A stretch of DNA of 64,000 nucleotides from a virus (lineage: Duplodnaviria; Caudoviricetes): the IMG/VR virus record IMGVR_UViG_3300025913_000019, one strand, 5' to 3'. Each line of letters begins with the position of its first letter. The first letter of the stretch is position 1. The notes under the pieces were generated by a model. The model had not been told where the DNA came from, searched no databases, and saw nothing but the letters and a program-made list of their open reading frames with translations. Shown one piece after another: positions 2,570-46,456 of this stretch. The translations under genes and the position numbers were made by a program.

Positions 2570-3091
2570 ATGTCCGAACAGAACCACGTCAACCAGATCG
2601 TCACCGTCATCGAGTACGGTGTCGTTACGAAGAAGTCCAAGAAGCCGGTCGAGCCTCCCATTGTGAGCAAACGTCTCGCGCTCATCACCGCGGGCTCCTA
2701 CCTGGGCGGCTATGGCCGTGTCAGCAATCACTGGGAATGGTCCTACGTGAACGAAGACGGGACGCTCGAAGCCAAGACCACGGCGGGCTACGACAACGGC
2801 GCCCCGTTCCGTCTTCTCCCGGCCGAAGGCTACGTGCTCGAGAAGCGCGTCGTCAAGATCGAGCCGAAGGAGCCAGTCCCGCGCGACTGTGCGTATGTCA
2901 ACGCCGACGAGCTCTGGTTCACGAACCGCCTGACACCAATCAGCTTGACCGGTGCCATCGACGCGGCAGCAAAGCTCGACGGCCAGCTGCGCGAGATCGC
3001 CAACGGCGAGCGCAAGCCGGGCAAGATCGCGGTCGATGACATCGCTGACCTCATCGCCTACGTGCGGCAGATGGCGAAGGCGCAGTTCTGA
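2570..3091 (+). CDS. Hypothetical protein
   Basis: SD CAGGA; co-oriented. Confidence 0.75.
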   Translation: MSEQNHVNQIVTVIEYGVVTKKSKKPVEPPIVSKRLALITAGSYLGGYGRVSNHWEWSYVNEDGTLEAKTTAGYDNGAPFRLLPAEGYVLEKRVVKIEPKEPVPRDCAYVNADELWFTNRLTPISLTGAIDAAAKLDGQLREIANGERKPGKIAVDDIADLIAYVRQMAKAQF

Positions 3092-3762: not shown

Positions 3763-4254
3763 GTGTTCAGACTCCCGAGCGACCTCCGCGTCGCCTACGT
3801 CCTCGGTGCTCGCATCGAGCTTCGCTTCTCGAAGAAGATGGGCGGCGTCCGACAAGAACAAGTCGGCGTCTGGCTCTCGGCACGTGACTGGGGCGCCGTC
3901 AGCGACTGCGAGTTCCGTGTCCATCCCGAAGACCAGGAACTGCTCGTGGCCGCACGCTGCGCCATCAACAAGACGAAGCTGTGCTTCTACTTCAAGTCGC
4001 CGCGGCACACGGAGGACGAGGATCGCCCCTGCCGGTACGCTGTACCGGCGCATGTGATCGGCACGGACACGCCGGTTCTCGCGCCCTACGGCATGGGCAC
4101 GTTCGTCGTCATCGACCGCGACCTCAATGCCACGGAGCTGGCCTACGCGGCGTTGCGTGGGCCACTTGGCGACAAGACCAAGAACGACATCGAGTTCGAT
4201 CGCCTGGCGAAGACGGCCTACGTCCTGGCCGAGAAGGCCGACGAAGACGCCTGA
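3763..4254 (+). CDS. Hypothetical protein (start ambiguous, see finding)
   Basis: GTG directly follows an in-frame TGA. Confidence 0.65.
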   Translation: MFRLPSDLRVAYVLGARIELRFSKKMGGVRQEQVGVWLSARDWGAVSDCEFRVHPEDQELLVAARCAINKTKLCFYFKSPRHTEDEDRPCRYAVPAHVIGTDTPVLAPYGMGTFVVIDRDLNATELAYAALRGPLGDKTKNDIEFDRLAKTAYVLAEKADEDA

Positions 4255-4316
4255 GTCGAGTCACCTGTCTCTCAGACCCATCACGCTTCCCATTCACCAC
4301 ACATAAGGAGTTCATC

Positions 4317-5069
4317 ATGGCTCAATCAAAGAAGAGCAAGACCTGGTCGCAGCCTATCGTCCTCGCCTTCACGGGCACAGCTCGCATCGATCCGATCGAC
4401 TCGTGCCTCTGCGTCCGTCAAGCCCTGTGCCACATCTACGGGCTCAGCGTCGACGATGACAACGACGACGAGTTCGACTTCATGGAGTTCCTGGACGATG
4501 ACATGTCCACGGTGCCGACGCCGACGGCCAACGACATGTTCCGCTGGTGGCTCTCCAGTTGCGACGTCGACCAGGCGTTGCAGGAGACCAAGCGCGTCGA
4601 CATCGAGTACGCCCTGCGCCTCATCTGGCCGAAGGAGATGACGACGAAGCAGATGGAGCTGTTCAGCCTGTTCACGGCGCGCCGGACGCTCGAGGACATG
4701 GATGACTTCAGCCTCAACATCACGCAGTCCGACGCGTTGAAGCGCTGGATGAACGAGACGTTCCTGGTCAAGGTCAAGCCGCTGTTCGACGCAGCGTTCT
4801 CCAAGTTCCAGGAGCAGGAGAAGTCGCGCGCCACGACCATCAACCAGGCGCGCAGCGCCGATGCCAAGGACGCGATCACGAAGCTCCAACGCCTGGGCTT
4901 CGAGTTCGGCACCATCGTCTGGCCCGAAGGCCTGGAAGATCCGACGCCGAAGATCGAGGGCAAGGTCGTGGTCCGCAAGCCGGCGGCGAAGCCGCCCGTG
5001 AAGACGACGCCGCGCGATGGCGGTGGCCGGAACGGGGAGCGAGAGCCGTTCCCCACCATGCGCAAATAA
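4317..5069 (+). CDS. Hypothetical protein
   Basis: SD TAAGGAG; start refined. Confidence 0.75.
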   Translation: MAQSKKSKTWSQPIVLAFTGTARIDPIDSCLCVRQALCHIYGLSVDDDNDDEFDFMEFLDDDMSTVPTPTANDMFRWWLSSCDVDQALQETKRVDIEYALRLIWPKEMTTKQMELFSLFTARRTLEDMDDFSLNITQSDALKRWMNETFLVKVKPLFDAAFSKFQEQEKSRATTINQARSADAKDAITKLQRLGFEFGTIVWPEGLEDPTPKIEGKVVVRKPAAKPPVKTTPRDGGGRNGEREPFPTMRK

Positions 5070-5088: not shown

Positions 5089-5658
5089 ATGGCAAAGAAT
5101 CTCTCACTCGTCATCAACACGCAGATCGACCTCTCAAAGGCGCAGGTCGTGGAGATGATTGCGTCAGTGCTGAGCTCGCACTACGTTGCCTCGCTGGAAG
5201 TCGACGATGGCAATGGAAACGGTGTCGCGTCCCAGGCTCATGCGTGGGCCACCGTCGCAGAAGTCGGCGGCCTTCACGAGCTGCTGTCCGAGCTGCACCG
5301 GAAGACGCTGCAGGAGGCGGTGGACATCATGTTCCCGAACCCGATGTCGGCACAGACATTCAGAGACCTGCTGACTGCCCTCAACATCGAGGACATGACG
5401 GCGATGGTCCTGAATGCCGGGCAGCAGGCGTCGCTCCTGAAATGGGCGATGCTTCGCATCGGCGATGCCGTAGCCGCGAAGTACGAGGAGTTGCTCAAGG
5501 AGTCGGAGCTCGAGCGCAAGGGTCGCGCCTTGATGATGCAACAGCGCGCGGCCGACACACTGAAGGAGGGAGGCTGGGAGCTCCAGCCTCCTACCCACTG
5601 GCATGGCGAACGTCGTCGCGGCTCACGCTCCGACCGACGCAAGTCGAAGAAGGAGTAA
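5089..5658 (+). CDS. Hypothetical protein
   Basis: SD GGAGG; start refined. Confidence 0.75.
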   Translation: MAKNLSLVINTQIDLSKAQVVEMIASVLSSHYVASLEVDDGNGNGVASQAHAWATVAEVGGLHELLSELHRKTLQEAVDIMFPNPMSAQTFRDLLTALNIEDMTAMVLNAGQQASLLKWAMLRIGDAVAAKYEELLKESELERKGRALMMQQRAADTLKEGGWELQPPTHWHGERRRGSRSDRRKSKKE

Positions 5659-5660
5659 AG

Positions 5661-6050
5661 ATGACGAAGAGCCACAAGGCCGTTGCACAGCTGATCGCCC
5701 TGAACGTGCAACGGTACACGCGCGAGAAGCCGGGGCGCAACAACCCGAGGCAGCATCGCATGTCGCTGTCGCAACTGCGCCTCATGTACGGCGTCGTTCA
5801 CCTGCTGCCGAAGGACTGGTTCACCGATCTCCAGTTCGAGCTGTCGGAGATCGGCTTCGTGTTGACGCGCAGCTGCGACACCGAGATCGTCATCACAGCG
5901 ATGGCCTACGTCGACTCGATGGTCAAGCTCAGTATCAAGCGCGTGGCCCTCCAGTGTCGCGACTCGGACGAGGACATCGACACCATGTTCAAGGCCGAGT
6001 ACGAACCCGCGACCTGGAAGCCCCCGGTCCGCGAAATCGAAGGAGAGTGA
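5661..6050 (+). CDS. Hypothetical protein
   Basis: SD AAGGAG; start refined. Confidence 0.7.
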   Translation: MTKSHKAVAQLIALNVQRYTREKPGRNNPRQHRMSLSQLRLMYGVVHLLPKDWFTDLQFELSEIGFVLTRSCDTEIVITAMAYVDSMVKLSIKRVALQCRDSDEDIDTMFKAEYEPATWKPPVREIEGE

Positions 6051-35291: not shown

Positions 35292-35696
35292 ATGATCGCA
35301 TCGCAACAACCCCTGAACCTGACCGTCAACGTCTCCGGCTTCGTGCCGGTGGATGTGACCCTGCAACCGCTGCCGAGCCCCGCGACCAGTTCCGTGGCTG
35401 CGCCGGCGGTCATCAAGGAAGACGTGGTCCGTCGTGTCAACCTGCGGGACTTCATGTTCAAGCAGGTGGGCAAGTTCGTGACCATCGACTTCGTCAAGAA
35501 CGACGGCACCGACCGTATGCTGAACGGTCGCCTTGGAGTGCGGAAGCACCTGAAGGGCGGCGACAGCACGTTGGCCGATGCCGACAAGCCGTACTTGGTG
35601 GTCTATGACATGAAGGCGAAGGGTTACCGGGCAGTCAACCTGGAGACCGTGAAGGAAGTGCGTGCTCAACGGACGCGCTACACCGTGATCGGCTGA
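35292..35696 (+). CDS. SH3-barrel/WYL-like protein
   Basis: FVTIDFVKNDGTDRMLNGRLG..LVVYDMKAKGYRAVNLETV. Confidence 0.65.
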   Translation: MIASQQPLNLTVNVSGFVPVDVTLQPLPSPATSSVAAPAVIKEDVVRRVNLRDFMFKQVGKFVTIDFVKNDGTDRMLNGRLGVRKHLKGGDSTLADADKPYLVVYDMKAKGYRAVNLETVKEVRAQRTRYTVIG

Positions 35697-35784
35697 TGGA
35701 ATTCCTGTAGGTGAGTAAGCCTGGACCCTCCCTAGCTTATTCGCGCGCACAGGCGGTGGGACTATTGCGAAGGTCCCAACCCCT

Positions 35785-35860
35785 GCTGTCTTAGCTCAGT
35801 TGGTAGAGCATCTGCCTTGTAAGCAGGAGGTCAAGGGTTCGAGTCCTTTAGGCAGCACCA
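35785..35860 (+). tRNA. tRNA-Thr(UGU)
   Basis: 76-nt canonical cloverleaf, loop CTTGTAA, GGTTCGAGTCC, encoded ACCA. Confidence 0.96.
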
Positions 35861-35879
35861 AACAACAAGAGGAGCCACT

Positions 35880-36308
35880 ATGTGGACGTGGAAGAGTGAA
35901 CTGAAGCGCTTCGGCGCAATCGTCGTGGTCGCAGCCGTCGGCATTGTCCTGATGGCCTCGACCACGAAGGCCAAGGCCACCGGCTACATGTACGGCGTGC
36001 CTCCGGGCGTCAAGGTCGACCACGATGTGAGCGGCGCCTTCGACGACACGGTCACGTTCGTGAGCCCGGCAACGGGCATCTACAACGTGACGTTCGAGGC
36101 CACGGACCTCCGTCCCATCAAGGTCGCAACCAAGTTCAAGATGGTGCAGCTGTCGACGACCCTCAAGGACGGCCGGCAGTTCTACAACATCACGCACAAC
36201 CCGGATGCCGCGATCTACGCAGAGCGCGGGCAGGTGTGGACCATCCGCTTCATCGGCACCTCGGCGGAACGCGGCGGCTCCTATTCGCTGCTGATCGATC
36301 CGCAGTAA
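35880..36308 (+). CDS. Secreted beta-sandwich-like protein with FxDx(F/V)-type motif
   Basis: Signal/TM N-terminus; VSGAFDDTVTF; no PEP-CTERM tail. Confidence 0.6.
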   Translation: MWTWKSELKRFGAIVVVAAVGIVLMASTTKAKATGYMYGVPPGVKVDHDVSGAFDDTVTFVSPATGIYNVTFEATDLRPIKVATKFKMVQLSTTLKDGRQFYNITHNPDAAIYAERGQVWTIRFIGTSAERGGSYSLLIDPQ

Positions 36309-36339
36309 GACAAAGGCTGTGCCCGCTGCAGTCCTGGAG

Positions 36340-36519
36340 TCCTAGGCTCCAAAACCCTTCGGGGTAATAGCGGGAGACCGGGAGGCATGCCTCCCGGCAC
36401 CTATTCCGGGGGTGTCCAATGGGGGCCGCTAGTAGGGCGGGGCAAGGTACGAGACGCTGACGCGTTGCTTCCGAGCCCTGTGGCCAAACGCGCCAGGTTC
36501 GAATCCTGGAACCCGACCA
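36340..36519 (+). ncRNA. Structured RNA ending in T-arm plus ACCA (tRNA-like 3' end, no canonical cloverleaf)
   Basis: CCAGG-TTCGAAT-CCTGG-AACCCG-A-CCA; upstream hairpins. Confidence 0.5.
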
Positions 36520-36523
36520 ACCC

Positions 36524-36654
36524 GAGTGCAGAGCTACGGGCCGAGGACCATGGGCCGTAATGGCGGTCACCGAGAACAAGCGGGAAGAAGTTGGTCACCT
36601 GACGGAGACCAGACCGGCGATGCTTGCGCGGCCTCGGTTCGTAGCTCTGCACTC
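36524..36654 (+). ncRNA. Unknown RNA closed by a 23-bp stem
   Basis: 36524-36546 pairs with 36632-36654 (21 WC + 2 GU). Confidence 0.6.
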
Positions 36655-36686
36655 TTGTCCCCCAACCACAAACGAAGGTTCACCAC

Positions 36687-37067
36687 ATGAAGATCAAGCC
36701 CCGCAACGAGCACGTCGTCGTTCGCCGCATCCCCAGCCGTGAGAAGAGCAGCGGCATCATCATCCCGGGCCAGGAAACCGAGCGCGATCTCTTCGCCGTC
36801 ACCGCGGTGGGCCCCGGCGGCTTCACACCGGCCGGCACGCGTGCACCCATCGAGCTCGACGTCGGTCAGCCGATCGTTCCCGGCATGCTCGTCTTCGTCC
36901 GCCCCGGCGACTACGAGATGTTCGACTCGGACCCGAACAGCCCGGGCGACGAAAGCCTGCGCATGGTGATCCCGCAGTCGGCCATCATCGGCGTCGAGGT
37001 CGACGACAACGACCAGCCGCTGATGTTCGCCGAGCCCGCGCAGTCGATGATCGCGACCCTCAACTGA
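36687..37067 (+). CDS. groES: GroES-like co-chaperonin
   Basis: MKIKPRNEHVVVRR..SSGIIIPG..AVTAVGPG. Confidence 0.85.
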   Translation: MKIKPRNEHVVVRRIPSREKSSGIIIPGQETERDLFAVTAVGPGGFTPAGTRAPIELDVGQPIVPGMLVFVRPGDYEMFDSDPNSPGDESLRMVIPQSAIIGVEVDDNDQPLMFAEPAQSMIATLN

Positions 37068-37668: not shown

Positions 37669-37708
37669 AGGTACCCGGCACCTGGTTCGATCCCAGGGCC
37701 CGGTATCT
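37669..37708 (+). ncRNA. T-loop-capped minihelix
   Basis: AGGTACC/GGTATCT + GGC/GCC + CCTGG-TTCGATC-CCAGG. Confidence 0.35.
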
Positions 37709-37717
37709 CCGGCAGGG

Positions 37718-37832
37718 TGGAGAGTGACGAAATTGGTAGACGTGCTGCCTTGGCAAGGGTGGTGCCCCTCGGGTCTCGGCCGCCAACTGAGACAATGAGG
37801 ACCGCGTGCTGGTTCGAGTCCAGCCTCTCCAT
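37718..37832 (+). tRNA. Non-canonical type-II tRNA-like gene (GGC loop, about 43-nt variable arm, no encoded CCA)
   Basis: TGGAGAG/CTCTCCA acceptor, Leu-type D arm ACG-AAATTGGTAGA-CGT, T arm GCTGG-TTCGAGT-CCAGC. Confidence 0.6.
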
Positions 37833-37841
37833 TTCTCCGAA

Positions 37842-37857: not shown

Positions 37858-38075
37858 ATCGCGTTGCAGCGATAGGGCAAGCTGATCGTGCCCTGGTTTG
37901 CGCCTGACCAAATTCGGCGTTCGCGCTCGTAGTGGTCGGCCGTAGTTGACATGTGCCTGGCATGTCTGCGCCTAAGCACTCTGTGCACAGATTAGAGGCC
38001 CGCCGGGTTGGTTGCAGATCCTTGCCGGCGGCCACCTACATGTAGCTTGCGTGCCAGACACGCGAGCCTGATTCC
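37858..38075 (+). ncRNA. Candidate structured RNA
   Basis: Non-coding gap with several stems (37858-73, 37874-94, 37957-64/38050-57, 37997-38033). Confidence 0.4.
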
Positions 38076-38099
38076 CCAACCACAGCCTAGGAGCTGAAG

Positions 38100-38252
38100 A
38101 TGAAGAAGACCCTGTTCTCCGCCGCACTGCTGATCGCGGTCGCCCTCGGTGGCGTCGCCATGGCCCAGGATTCGACGCCGGACGGCTGCATGCCCGGCAA
38201 CGGCGGCTCGGCCCCCATCTGCACCCCGGGCACGGGCCCCGGCGGCAAGTAA
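38100..38252 (+). CDS. 50-aa secreted peptide with two Cys (missing from ORF track)
   Basis: SD AGGAG; MKKTLFSAALLIAVALGGVAMA|QDSTPDGCMPGNGGSAPICTPGTGPGGK. Confidence 0.7.
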   Translation: MKKTLFSAALLIAVALGGVAMAQDSTPDGCMPGNGGSAPICTPGTGPGGK

Positions 38253-38299
38253 AGATCAACGCAGCGAGGGCGAAAGAAGAGTCACCCGCAGTTGCAGTG

Positions 38300-38760
38300 A
38301 GAAGTCCCGCCTCCCCAGGGACGACGTAGTGTCCGAGCAATCGGGCGTGTGTCAAACCATAGGGAACATGGTCGTGTGTCGGCACTCGCCGACGAGAGTC
38401 TGAAGCTGACGGATGTTGGACGGGGGTTCGATTCCCCCCGGCTCCACCACTAGCGCCTGCGTACATGCGGGTGCTAGTGATGGGGCCGACCAGGTTTCGA
38501 CAGCGTTGCTGATGTGGAGGACGACGACTCGCGCGTATGGCCTAGTCTAGCTCAGCGTTACAGAGCCGACAGGGTACAAAACTAACTGCCAACGACGAGC
38601 AATTCGCTCAGGCCCTCGCGGCCTAAGCGCAGAACAGCTGCGGGTTCTACCTAGGCAACTAGGTGTGTACGCAGCCGGGCCGGACACAGCGGATAACCTC
38701 TGCTGTGTGTCTGAGTAAGCCGGGGCCGCAAGGTCCAGGTTAGGGACGGTGGGCTTCGGC
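38300..38760 (+). ncRNA. ssrA: Circularly permuted two-piece tmRNA (outer ends uncertain)
   Basis: Acceptor half ends CGGCTCCACCA at 38449; 5' half GGGGCCG starts 38482; G3-U70; tag ANDEQFAQALAA* at 38588-38626. Confidence 0.92.
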
Positions 38761-45672: not shown

Positions 45673-46028
45673 GCGCGCAGCGTCCGTTCGGCTACCTGTA
45701 CGAGAACGTCGGCGGCGCCATTGTCTTCCATCGGGAGGGTAGCTGCAACAGGGACGTTCTGAATGCGGACATGGAAGCCGCCGCCATGTACCCGAAGGGA
45801 CATGTGCTGACGCCTCTGTTCACGCAACCAGTGGTCACACCGGAAGAAGAAGAGCTGCTGCTCGCCACCGGTCGTCTCTGGAACGACTTCTGCCAGCTGC
45901 CTGACAGCGCGGCATCTGACACCGACGACTTCTACCGAGCTGTCCACGAACTGCAGCGCATCATCGCACTTCGTGGCATGCGACGTGCCGTGCCTGCCCT
46001 CTTCACCCAGCACAAGGATCGGACATGA
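45669..46028 (+). CDS. Hypothetical protein
   Basis: ATGA overlap. Confidence 0.65.
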   Translation: MSAQRPFGYLYENVGGAIVFHREGSCNRDVLNADMEAAAMYPKGHVLTPLFTQPVVTPEEEELLLATGRLWNDFCQLPDSAASDTDDFYRAVHELQRIIALRGMRRAVPALFTQHKDRT

Positions 46029-46456
46029 AGACCATCATCTACGACATCGACGGCTGCTGCATCGACTCGACGTTCCGCCACGAGCACGTGCAGGTCGACT
46101 TCAAGCGCTATCTGGAACTGCACCCGACTGACAAGCCGATCATGCAAGGCGTGCTCGTCTACACGCTGCTGCTCGAGCTCCAGGACTTCCGGCACGTCTT
46201 CATCACCGGCCGCGGCGAGGAAGAGCGTGATTCCACGACCGCGATCCTCGAGCGCCTCTTCCACGGCAAGACCTTCGAGCTGCTGATGCGGCCGGCCGAT
46301 GATCGACGGCCTGACGTCGAGATCAAGGGCGAGCTCATGCAGCAGAACGGCATCTGGCCCAAGGACGTGTTCCTGGCCTTCGATGATCGTCCGGTCATGG
46401 TCGAGTTCTACCGGAGCCTCGGCATCGTCGCCTACCAAACCGCGGAGGGTTACTGA
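46025..46456 (+). CDS. HAD phosphatase (polynucleotide kinase 3'-phosphatase-like)
   Basis: IYDIDG, FITGR, LLMRPADDRRPD..K, AFDDR. Confidence 0.85.
   Translation: MKTIIYDIDGCCIDSTFRHEHVQVDFKRYLELHPTDKPIMQGVLVYTLLLELQDFRHVFITGRGEEERDSTTAILERLFHGKTFELLMRPADDRRPDVEIKGELMQQNGIWPKDVFLAFDDRPVMVEFYRSLGIVAYQTAEGY

What the first reader, a model, noticed from the sequence alone, without database searches (positions are those of the whole stretch)
36340..36519. tRNA-like 3' end (T-arm plus ACCA) on a non-cloverleaf RNA
Seen: a perfect T arm, then AACCCG-A-CCA (tRNA-Pro-like ending, one base short). No matching D/anticodon arms lie 70 nt upstream. Instead there are stems CCGGGAGG/CCTCCCGG, AATAG/CTATT and CGCGTT/AACGCG. 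A possible 5' partner (T)CGGGGT lies about 160 nt upstream. Established: T-arm mimicry occurs in tmRNA, YrlA Y RNAs and viral tRNA-like structures. Inference: a new tRNA mimic, perhaps a decoy for anticodon nucleases or uncharged-tRNA sensors.
Basis: partly seen in the sequence, partly recalled or inferred. Interest (0 to 1): 0.6.

Follow-up and report, generated by a model that had tools for sequence, protein, structure and literature searches.

The report
Leftover tRNA end in phage
A large soil phage carries the intact tail end of a tRNA gene (T arm plus ACCA) joined to sequence that is not tRNA-like; it is most likely a remnant of a proline tRNA gene rather than a proven new tRNA mimic, and the stems upstream belong to a separate, conserved folded RNA.

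Summary
A perfect T arm (36493-36509) is followed by AACCCG-A-CCA, and no tRNA detector accepts the region.

The interval is not one RNA. It holds two modules.

(1) 36311-36405 is a four-hairpin element. It is conserved in a related phage contig (61 bits, 9 compensatory pairs), where it precedes a normal tRNA-Ser.

(2) 36407-36519 ("X") carries the T arm and ACCA. Its 80-nt body is no more tRNA-like than shuffled sequence. It has no homologue outside near-identical strains.

X sits where a relative has an intact tRNA-Pro, directly upstream of the GroES-like gene. It lies in a 3-kb RNA island of a phiRSL1-like jumbo phage that also holds a tRNA-Thr, other aberrant tRNA-like genes and a two-piece tmRNA. 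A relative's island contains tRNA fragments.

Best reading, about 0.5: a tRNA-Pro 3' remnant that no longer decodes. It may still serve as an RNase P/CCA-type processing signal. A decoy or mimic function is neither supported nor excluded. No expression data were available.

Earlier notes of this scan had already flagged this stretch and the island, on the same genome only.

The parts
36311..36405 (+). Conserved four-hairpin RNA module ('leader').
   Evidence: nhmmer hit to L042 2953-3068, E 5e-5. CM R3 hits L042 2948-3048 at 61.2 bits, E 2e-13, and weakly L043 1997-2093 at 17.7 bits. 98.9% of cells are paired and 9 pairs change on both sides, reached by 0/500 shuffles; slid controls give <=1. 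The strain SNP 36394 C>T keeps a G-U pair.
36407..36519 (+). 'X': tRNA-derived element. Non-tRNA body plus T arm, acceptor 3' strand and ACCA.
   Evidence: No tRNA or tmRNA call. The isolated fold is no better than shuffles, z +0.12. The body is no more tRNA-like than shuffled bodies. Identical in the near-identical strain contigs that cover it, L045-L048, L050 and G001.
36493..36509 (+). T arm: 5-bp stem and canonical 7-nt T loop.
   Evidence: Read directly. Pair probabilities 0.93-0.95. One of five + strand T arms, all in the island.
36510..36519 (+). Acceptor 3' strand, one base short of canonical if the end is read as A73-CCA, then discriminator A and CCA. A near-repeat of AACCCGA follows at 36519-36525.
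   Evidence: Read directly. The G72/A73/CCA ending matches the tRNA-Pro genes of L042 and L044.
36407..36410 (+). Candidate acceptor 5' strand, CGGG, giving 4 G-C pairs with 36512-36515.
   Evidence: Pair probability about 0.9 when X is folded alone. Four pairs are easily found by chance in 66% GC sequence, and they are not formed in the fold of the longer 36340-36522 stretch.
36524..36655 (+). Separate 132-nt hairpin closed by a 23-bp helix with two G-U pairs. It starts 4 nt after the CCA.
   Evidence: MFE -77.4 kcal/mol, z -6.1, 0/200 shuffles. The strain SNP 36633 C>T turns a G-C pair into G-U.
35785..35857 (+). Context: canonical tRNA-Thr(UGU).
   Evidence: ARAGORN and Rfam, 71.2 bits.
36687..37067 (+). 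Context: GroES-like gene. In relative L044 an intact tRNA-Pro lies directly upstream of its homologue.
   Evidence: PHROG and Pfam Cpn10. Homologues P0002-P0004 and their loci.
38357..38717 (+). Context: two-piece (permuted) tmRNA gene.
   Evidence: ARAGORN, tag ANDEQFAQALAA; Rfam tmRNA_permuted, 87.5 bits.

Best explanation
X (36407-36519) is what remains of a tRNA gene, most likely the tRNA-Pro that related phages keep directly upstream of the GroES-like gene. Only the 3' end is still tRNA: the T arm, the acceptor 3' strand and the encoded ACCA, with perhaps a trace of the variable loop. The 5' two-thirds have been replaced by, or have diverged into, sequence with no detectable tRNA features, so X cannot decode.

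This module happens to abut X. In a related phage it abuts a normal tRNA-Ser.

Shown: the T arm and ACCA; no tRNA score; the two-module anatomy; the covariation of the leader; the synteny with tRNA-Pro; the tRNA fragments in a relative's island.

Inferred: that the origin is tRNA-Pro, and that the state is a relic. If the remnant still does anything, the most likely activity is passive. A short acceptor/T-arm helix with a 3' RCCA could be recognised by RNase P and 3'-end enzymes. These would cut the island transcript at about 36406/36407 and 36519.
For: Anatomy and detectors:
- T arm plus ACCA is present.
- There is no tRNA or tmRNA hit at any threshold. A 5'-truncated scan of the last 47 nt gives only 10 bits to the tRNA clan.
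- Body control: with the ends kept and the body shuffled, 37 of 70 shuffles gave an ARAGORN tRNA after some single deletion. The real X gave one such hit. The body therefore carries no tRNA signal.

Synteny:
- L044 has tRNA-Ser, Thr and Pro, then GroES 29 nt later.
- L042 has the leader plus tRNA-Ser, then Thr, Pro, one ORF and GroES.
- X ends ...CCCG-A-CCA like those tRNA-Pro genes, and its T arm differs from L044's tRNA-Pro mainly at one loop base and the closing pair.

Fragments and degeneracy in relatives:
- L042 has a 3' tRNA piece at about 4010-4055 and a 5' piece at about 4286-4330.
- The acceptor is degenerate, 4 pairs, and the 3' strand is one base short.
- No homologue of X was found in phiRSL1, BCSR5, BcepSauron or Motura. 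There is only a borderline match in L043: 23.9 bits with one assumed fold, 16.4 with another, and sequence z about 1.

The leader is independent of X.
Against: - The T arm is flawless and CCA is encoded while the rest is unrecognisable. Uniform neutral decay would not leave this pattern. It needs either a recent rearrangement or selection on the 3' module.
- About 350 nt of non-coding DNA is kept in a tightly packed phage genome. X is identical in every near-identical strain contig that covers it, while nearby spots are hypervariable. Overall strain divergence is only 1-3%, so this is weak evidence.
- The same island holds other non-decoding T-arm elements, and relatives hold long tRNA-like genes with perfect acceptor stems. 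This hints that the lineage keeps tRNA look-alikes on purpose.
- No 5' half of a tRNA-Pro and no breakpoint partner were found.
- The assignment to Pro rests on about 10 nt and on synteny in a single 1.8-kb contig.
Confidence: 0.5

Rival explanations
1. Processing handle ('punctuation'). The acceptor/T-arm helix with 3' ACCA is kept by selection because RNase P and 3'-end enzymes cut there. This would release the upstream four-hairpin RNA with a defined 3' end and separate it from the GroES mRNA, as plant mitochondrial t-elements do.
For: - In L042 the same leader is followed 10 nt later by a real tRNA. In the window it is followed 1 nt later by X.
- T-arm elements alternate with small ORFs across the island.
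- A T arm flanked by a 7-nt acceptor-like stem with 6 of 7 pairs lies at 37673-37704.
- t-elements are a documented precedent (PMC1920247, found).
Against: - The acceptor has only 4 pairs and is separated from the T stem by two unpaired A, which makes a poor RNase P substrate on paper.
- The weak leader-like copy in L043 is not followed by any T arm.
- No transcript data exist.
Confidence: 0.22
2. Functional tRNA mimic or decoy. X folds into a tRNA-like shape and titrates a host tRNA-targeting nuclease, a tRNA-binding sensor or a tRNA enzyme.
For: - The T arm and CCA are intact.
- Several anticodon-less tRNA look-alikes occur in this island and in relatives.
- Phage tRNAs are known to counter tRNA-cleaving defences (PMC10264068, PMC11464382).
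- A PNKP-type phosphatase gene lies at 46025-46456.
Against: - The fold is not supported: z +0.12, and the body is indistinguishable from shuffles.
- The acceptor is degenerate, and there is no D or anticodon arm.
- There is no homologue and no covariation.
- The known counter-defence cases are full, decoding tRNAs.
Confidence: 0.13
3. One ~160-nt RNA whose acceptor stem joins TCGGGGT (36359-36365) to AACCCGA (36510-36516), a tmRNA-like layout.
For: Six of seven pairs are possible. ARAGORN draws this layout only at a 70% threshold.
Against: - TCGGGGT is half of hairpin H3. In L042, H3 keeps its place with a different sequence and sits before a tRNA that has its own acceptor stem.
- The 70% threshold gave 32 calls in 3 kb.
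- No tmRNA family matches here. There is no G3-U70 pair and no tag frame.
Confidence: 0.05
4. Protein-coding: the 57-codon ORF 36387-36560 that metagenome gene callers annotate.
For: It was called as a gene on several contigs.
Against: - Its ATG lies in the loop of the H4 hairpin.
- The frame stops after 8 codons in L042.
- The only SNP inside it, 36394, is non-synonymous but keeps an RNA pair.
- It runs through the T arm and into the long hairpin.
Confidence: 0.02
5. attP-type copy of the 3' end of a host tRNA gene, used for integration.
For: Integrating elements carry exactly such T-arm-to-CCA fragments (PMC9897764).
Against: - No integrase among 81 ORFs.
- The 21-mer spanning the T loop and acceptor occurs in none of 185,579 species genomes.
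- The phage belongs to the phiRSL1-like jumbo group.
Confidence: 0.02

Closest known systems
tRNA gene 3' fragments (partial tRNA genes; van der Gulik et al. 2023, PMC9897764)
   Same: A T arm plus acceptor 3' strand without a matching 5' half. Such fragments are mis-scored or missed by tRNA finders.
   Different: The known cases arise mostly at integration junctions in cellular genomes and have a full copy nearby. Here the fragment lies inside a lytic-type jumbo phage's tRNA island, with no integrase, no host match and no full copy.
Phage tRNAs with 'enigmatic introns' (Lak megaphages, PMC6784885)
   Same: Oversized tRNA-like genes in huge phages that bacterial tRNA finders reject. Relatives of this phage have such genes with 21-65-nt inserts.
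   Different: Those keep full acceptor, D and T arms and a readable anticodon after the insert is removed. X does not.
Plant mitochondrial t-elements (PMC1920247)
   Same: Acceptor/T-arm mimics next to ORFs that need no decoding parts.
   Different: Processing there is shown experimentally. Here it is only inferred, and the acceptor helix is much weaker.
YrlA / bacterial Y RNAs (RF02553; PMC4201824)
   Same: T-arm mimicry on a non-tRNA. phiRSL1 has a weak YrlA-like hit of 32 bits.
   Different: X has no YrlA hit, no acceptor-like hairpin abutting the T arm, no D arm and no Ro60/TROVE gene.
tmRNA tRNA-like domain
   Same: A T arm plus ACCA 3' end without an anticodon arm. A true two-piece tmRNA lies 1.8 kb downstream.
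   Different: No tmRNA family hit at X, no G-U Ala identity pair, no tag reading frame and no helix 2.

Membership tests
Canonical tRNA (Rfam RF00005 / ARAGORN) | Cloverleaf scoring at or above the family threshold (29 bits) | tested here: not met
   No hit at gathering score, nor at E<=10 on 3.4 kb or on 231 nt. ARAGORN gives none at default settings, with or without introns.
Canonical tRNA (Rfam RF00005 / ARAGORN) | T arm with 5-bp stem and UUCRANY loop | tested here: met
   36493-36509.
Canonical tRNA (Rfam RF00005 / ARAGORN) | 7-bp acceptor stem, D arm, and anticodon arm with a 7-nt loop | tested here: not met
   The acceptor has 4 pairs. The body is no more tRNA-like than shuffled bodies: 37/70 shuffles do as well or better.
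tRNA gene 3' fragment | T arm plus acceptor 3' strand (with or without CCA) and no cognate 5' half | tested here: met
tRNA gene 3' fragment | Traceable parent: a full tRNA at the same place in relatives, or a full copy nearby | tested here: inconclusive
   An intact tRNA-Pro lies directly before GroES in L044, and before an ORF plus GroES in L042. Sequence identity to it is limited to the T arm and end, and no full copy exists in the window.
tmRNA | tRNA-like domain with Ala identity plus a tag ORF; match to a tmRNA model | tested here: not met
   The tmRNA models hit only 38319-38686. ARAGORN tmRNA calls in this region appear only at a 70% threshold and have implausible tags.
YrlA / Y RNA | T arm, acceptor-like hairpin and D arm enclosed by a Ro60-binding stem; rsr (TROVE) gene present | tested here: not met
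   No RF02553 hit. No TROVE in G001 or four related phages, nor among 81 window ORFs.
RNase P/Z processing element (t-element-like) | Cleavage by RNase P or RNase Z at the mimic | not testable with these tools
   No RNA run was listed.

The most novel reading that the evidence does not exclude
X, the T-arm minihelix at 37673-37704 and the 115-nt tRNA look-alike at 37717-37833 are a deliberately kept set of anticodon-less tRNA mimics in phiRSL1-like soil phages. They would act as decoys or sponges for host tRNA-cleaving defences or tRNA-processing enzymes. Alternatively, they would act as tRNA-type handles that mature a new class of phage small RNAs, such as the conserved four-hairpin RNA at 36311-36405.
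Probability: 0.13. Interest if true: 0.75.

Novelty: new member of a known kind. Interest (0 to 1): 0.33.

Why it matters
If X is a relic, it documents how fast tRNA islands of jumbo phages are rearranged. It also warns against reading every T arm as a mimic.

The by-product matters more. There is a well-supported, unclassified four-hairpin RNA conserved between distant phages. There is also a recurring pattern of non-decoding tRNA look-alikes in this phage group. Both are worth transcript mapping, because phage tRNAs are now known to take part in defence and counter-defence.

Tried and rejected
- Phage database DNA search with 36310-36690: no match.
- IMG/VR scans with flanking proteins, the terminase, the T-arm/end 24-mer and a leader pattern: only the near-identical contig G001 and one chance hit.
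- Metagenome scan with an H4 pattern: 119+ stretches. The 80 returned loci held no true leader (best 17 bits, a bacterial intergenic region).
- Genome scan for a host tRNA with this end: none.
- RNA runs: none was listed.
- X as a tRNA with one insertion: deleting 36444-36467 gives an ARAGORN tRNA-Gly(UCC). This was rejected because shuffled bodies do as well.
- X as homologue of the L043 tRNA-like at 1859-1973 (ARAGORN Arg(CCU) plus a 35-nt insert at a 90% threshold). The CM score depends on the assumed fold (23.9 vs 16.4 bits) and sequence z is about 1. That element is also followed by the same 16-nt motif (CGCGTTGCAGCGATAG) that follows 37717-37833, so it looks like the positional counterpart of that element instead. 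Left open.
- Search for a tRNA-Pro 5' half or a perfect acceptor partner upstream: none.
- Antisense targets of the element in the window: only chance-length matches.
- Sigma-70 promoter and terminator scan: nothing informative.
- The ACTGTAAAGA motif does not precede the leader.

Full report
**Setting**

The window is part of a large phage genome. It is 61-65% GC, and the ORF set used here lies wholly on the + strand. Its terminase, portal, UvsX-like and SSB genes are phage-type. The terminase is 54% identical to that of Ralstonia phage phiRSL1. It is 45-52% identical to those of Burkholderia phages BCSR5 and BcepSauron and Achromobacter phage Motura.

The window's own assembly is not held. 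The nearest record, G001 (an IMG/VR contig of 91 kb), is about 94-99% identical over the region.

**The observation**

At 36493-36509 there is a perfect 5-bp T stem with the canonical loop TTCGAAT. It is followed by AACCCG, A and CCA, ending at 36519.

ARAGORN finds only a tRNA-Thr (35785-35860) and a two-piece tmRNA (38357-38717). Rfam agrees. Nothing from the tRNA clan is reported over the element in any of these searches:
- at E<=10 on 3.4 kb;
- at E<=10 on a 231-nt slice;
- with ARAGORN's intron search at default stringency.

A scan for T-arm-shaped sites finds five on the + strand of the window. All lie between 35.8 and 38.4 kb. The only other two are on the - strand. The T arm is therefore not a chance motif; it lies in an island of tRNA-type genes.

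**Two modules, not one RNA**

Homologues of the downstream GroES-like protein led to three related contigs:
- L042, a 238-kb contig, 61% identity;
- L043, a 56-kb contig, 55% identity;
- L044, 1.8 kb, 58% identity.
They also led to six near-identical strain contigs.

In L042 the stretch 2948-3048 is homologous to window 36306-36410. nhmmer gives E 5e-5. A covariance model of the window sequence gives 61.2 bits, E 2e-13.

The shared structure is four hairpins: H1 36315-36333, H2 36336-36350, H3 36354-36365 and H4 36366-36405. On the model-fitted alignment 98.9% of cells pair. Nine pairs change on both sides. No shuffle out of 500 reaches this, and versions with the partners slid by 1-3 columns give at most one such pair. 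The alignment was fitted to the structure, so these counts lean towards it, but the margin is large.

In L042 this module ends 10 nt before a normal tRNA-Ser(UGA). In the window it ends 1 nt before the element that carries the T arm.

Three consequences follow:
H3 keeps its place in L042 with a different sequence.
- A long-range acceptor stem from H3 to the 3' end is therefore unlikely.

**The T-arm element itself (X, 36407-36519)**

*Fold.* Folded alone, X forms a 4-bp G-C acceptor-like helix (36407-10 with 36512-15), a small arm, a long imperfect arm and the T arm. The energy is no better than that of shuffles, z +0.12. In the longer 36340-36522 context the acceptor helix is not predicted at all.

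*Insertion test.* I asked whether X is a tRNA carrying one insertion by deleting every possible segment and running ARAGORN. One variant, lacking 36444-36467, is called tRNA-Gly(UCC). The control removes this result. With the two ends kept and the body shuffled, 37 of 70 shuffles gave at least one such call, and many gave dozens. The body of X has no tRNA signal beyond what the ends supply.

*Homologues.*
- A covariance model of X finds nothing in phiRSL1, BCSR5, BcepSauron or Motura.
- It finds a 115-nt tRNA-like element in L043 (1859-1973) at 23.9 bits. A second model with the alternative fold gives only 16.4 bits. Sequence similarity of the bodies has z of about 1.
- That L043 element is followed by the same 16-nt motif (CGCGTTGCAGCGATAG) that follows the window's other tRNA look-alike at 37717-37833. 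It is more likely the counterpart of that element.
- X is thus an orphan outside its own near-identical strains. These differ by 1-3% overall. They show one change in the leader and two in the downstream hairpin. Two of those three changes convert G-C to G-U on the + strand.

**Where X comes from**

L044 has tRNA-Ser, tRNA-Thr and tRNA-Pro(UGG). The GroES-like gene starts 29 nt after the Pro CCA. L042 has the leader plus tRNA-Ser, then Thr and Pro, then one ORF, then GroES.

In the window, X occupies the place just upstream of GroES, separated from it by the 132-nt hairpin. X ends in ...CCCG-A-CCA as both tRNA-Pro genes do. Its T arm is close to that of L044's tRNA-Pro.

L042 also carries loose tRNA pieces: a 3' piece at about 4010-4055 and a 5' piece at about 4286-4330. 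So these islands do generate fragments.

An attP-type origin is unlikely. There is no integrase among 81 ORFs. No bacterial genome of 185,579 species holds the 21-mer that spans the T loop and acceptor.

The 57-codon ORF that gene callers place here is not credible:
- it starts in a hairpin loop;
- it is closed after 8 codons in L042;
- its only polymorphism is non-synonymous yet keeps an RNA pair.

**Interpretation**

The simplest account is a 3' remnant of a tRNA, probably tRNA-Pro, joined to non-tRNA sequence. This is a known kind of object (PMC9897764).

Two facts keep a functional reading alive. First, the T arm and CCA are flawless although everything 5' of them is unrecognisable. Second, this phage group repeatedly carries non-decoding tRNA look-alikes:
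- a T arm flanked by a 7-nt acceptor-like stem with 6 of 7 pairs at 37673-37704;
- a 115-nt element at 37717-37833;
- two long elements with perfect 7-bp acceptor stems in L044;
- in phiRSL1, a tRNA with a 62-nt insert and a weak YrlA-like module.

Huge phages with tRNAs bearing unexplained inserts have been reported (PMC6784885).

If X is still used, the least demanding role is as a cleavage signal for RNase P and 3'-end enzymes, as with plant mitochondrial t-elements (PMC1920247). That would also explain why the conserved leader is followed by a tRNA in one phage and by X in another. The 4-bp acceptor is a weak substrate on paper.

The decoy idea has no direct support. The known counter-defence cases are complete tRNAs (PMC10264068, PMC11464382). 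The window offers only a PNKP-type phosphatase as a possibly related gene.

No RNA run was listed for this sequence, so expression and ends remain untested.

**Verdict**

- The architecture is corrected to two modules.
- The interpretation as a new tRNA mimic is not established.
- Odds: relic about 0.5, processing handle about 0.2, mimic or decoy about 0.13, other readings below 0.1 together.

Earlier notes of this scan had flagged this same stretch and the RNA island on the same genome. No look-alike on other DNA was on record.

Noticed in passing
window 36311-36405; L042 2948-3048; L043 1997-2093: An unclassified four-hairpin RNA module conserved between phages whose proteins are only about 60% identical. 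It scores 61 bits with 9 compensatory pairs. No Rfam family matches it. It sits directly after a stop codon and before a tRNA or tRNA-like gene in two of the phages.
   Followed up: partly
window 36524-36655: A 132-nt hairpin closed by a 23-bp helix with two G-U pairs (z -6.1). A strain SNP converts a further G-C to G-U, which points to RNA-level selection on the + strand. No family matches it.
   Followed up: partly
window 37673-37704: A T arm flanked directly by a 7-nt acceptor-like stem (6 of 7 pairs), a tRNA 'minihelix' without D or anticodon arms. It lies just upstream of the 115-nt tRNA look-alike at 37717-37833, which ARAGORN calls tRNA-Ala(GGC) with a 21-nt insert.
   Followed up: no
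window 35600-35900 vs G001 5654-5743 and L045 2085-2174: Near-identical strains carry two different tRNA-Thr(UGU) alleles. One is a 73-nt ordinary form (this window). The other is an 87-90-nt form with a long extra arm and a Ser/Leu-like D arm. L042 and L044 also have the long form. A class-II-shaped tRNA with a Thr anticodon is unusual.
   Followed up: no
window 38000-38350: A second hypervariable spot between strains (28-39% variable columns). It covers the small secreted-peptide gene and the 5' flank of the tmRNA.
   Followed up: no
window 5655, 27575, 31341, 34892, 35133, 37845, 38249, 41757, 43328 (+ strand): GTAAAGA, often as ACTGTAAAGA, occurs 9 times on the + strand, and several copies lie between genes. 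GTAARGA matches total 10 on both strands against about 3 expected, and 0/100 shuffles reach that. It is a candidate phage promoter or processing motif.
   Followed up: partly
window 36661-36671 and 38075-38085: The motif CCCAACCACA lies about 15 nt upstream of the start codons of the GroES-like gene and of the secreted-peptide gene.
   Followed up: no
L041 (phiRSL1 NC_010811.2 188801-188924 and 189208-189691, - strand): phiRSL1 has an unannotated tRNA with a 62-nt insert in the anticodon arm. It also has a 484-nt gap holding two permuted tRNA-like modules (T arm, acceptor-like hairpin, D arm). One of them gives a weak YrlA hit (32 bits), yet the phage has no TROVE gene.
   Followed up: partly
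L044 1481-1632 and 1652-1763: Two long tRNA-like genes (152 and 112 nt) with perfect 7-bp acceptor stems and T arms but 65- and 22-nt inserts in the anticodon region. They lie downstream of the GroES-like gene of a related phage.
   Followed up: no
L042 4010-4055 and 4286-4330: A loose 3' tRNA piece (anticodon loop to ACCA) and a loose 5' tRNA piece (acceptor and D arm). They flank a small zinc-finger-like ORF in a related phage's tRNA island.
   Followed up: no
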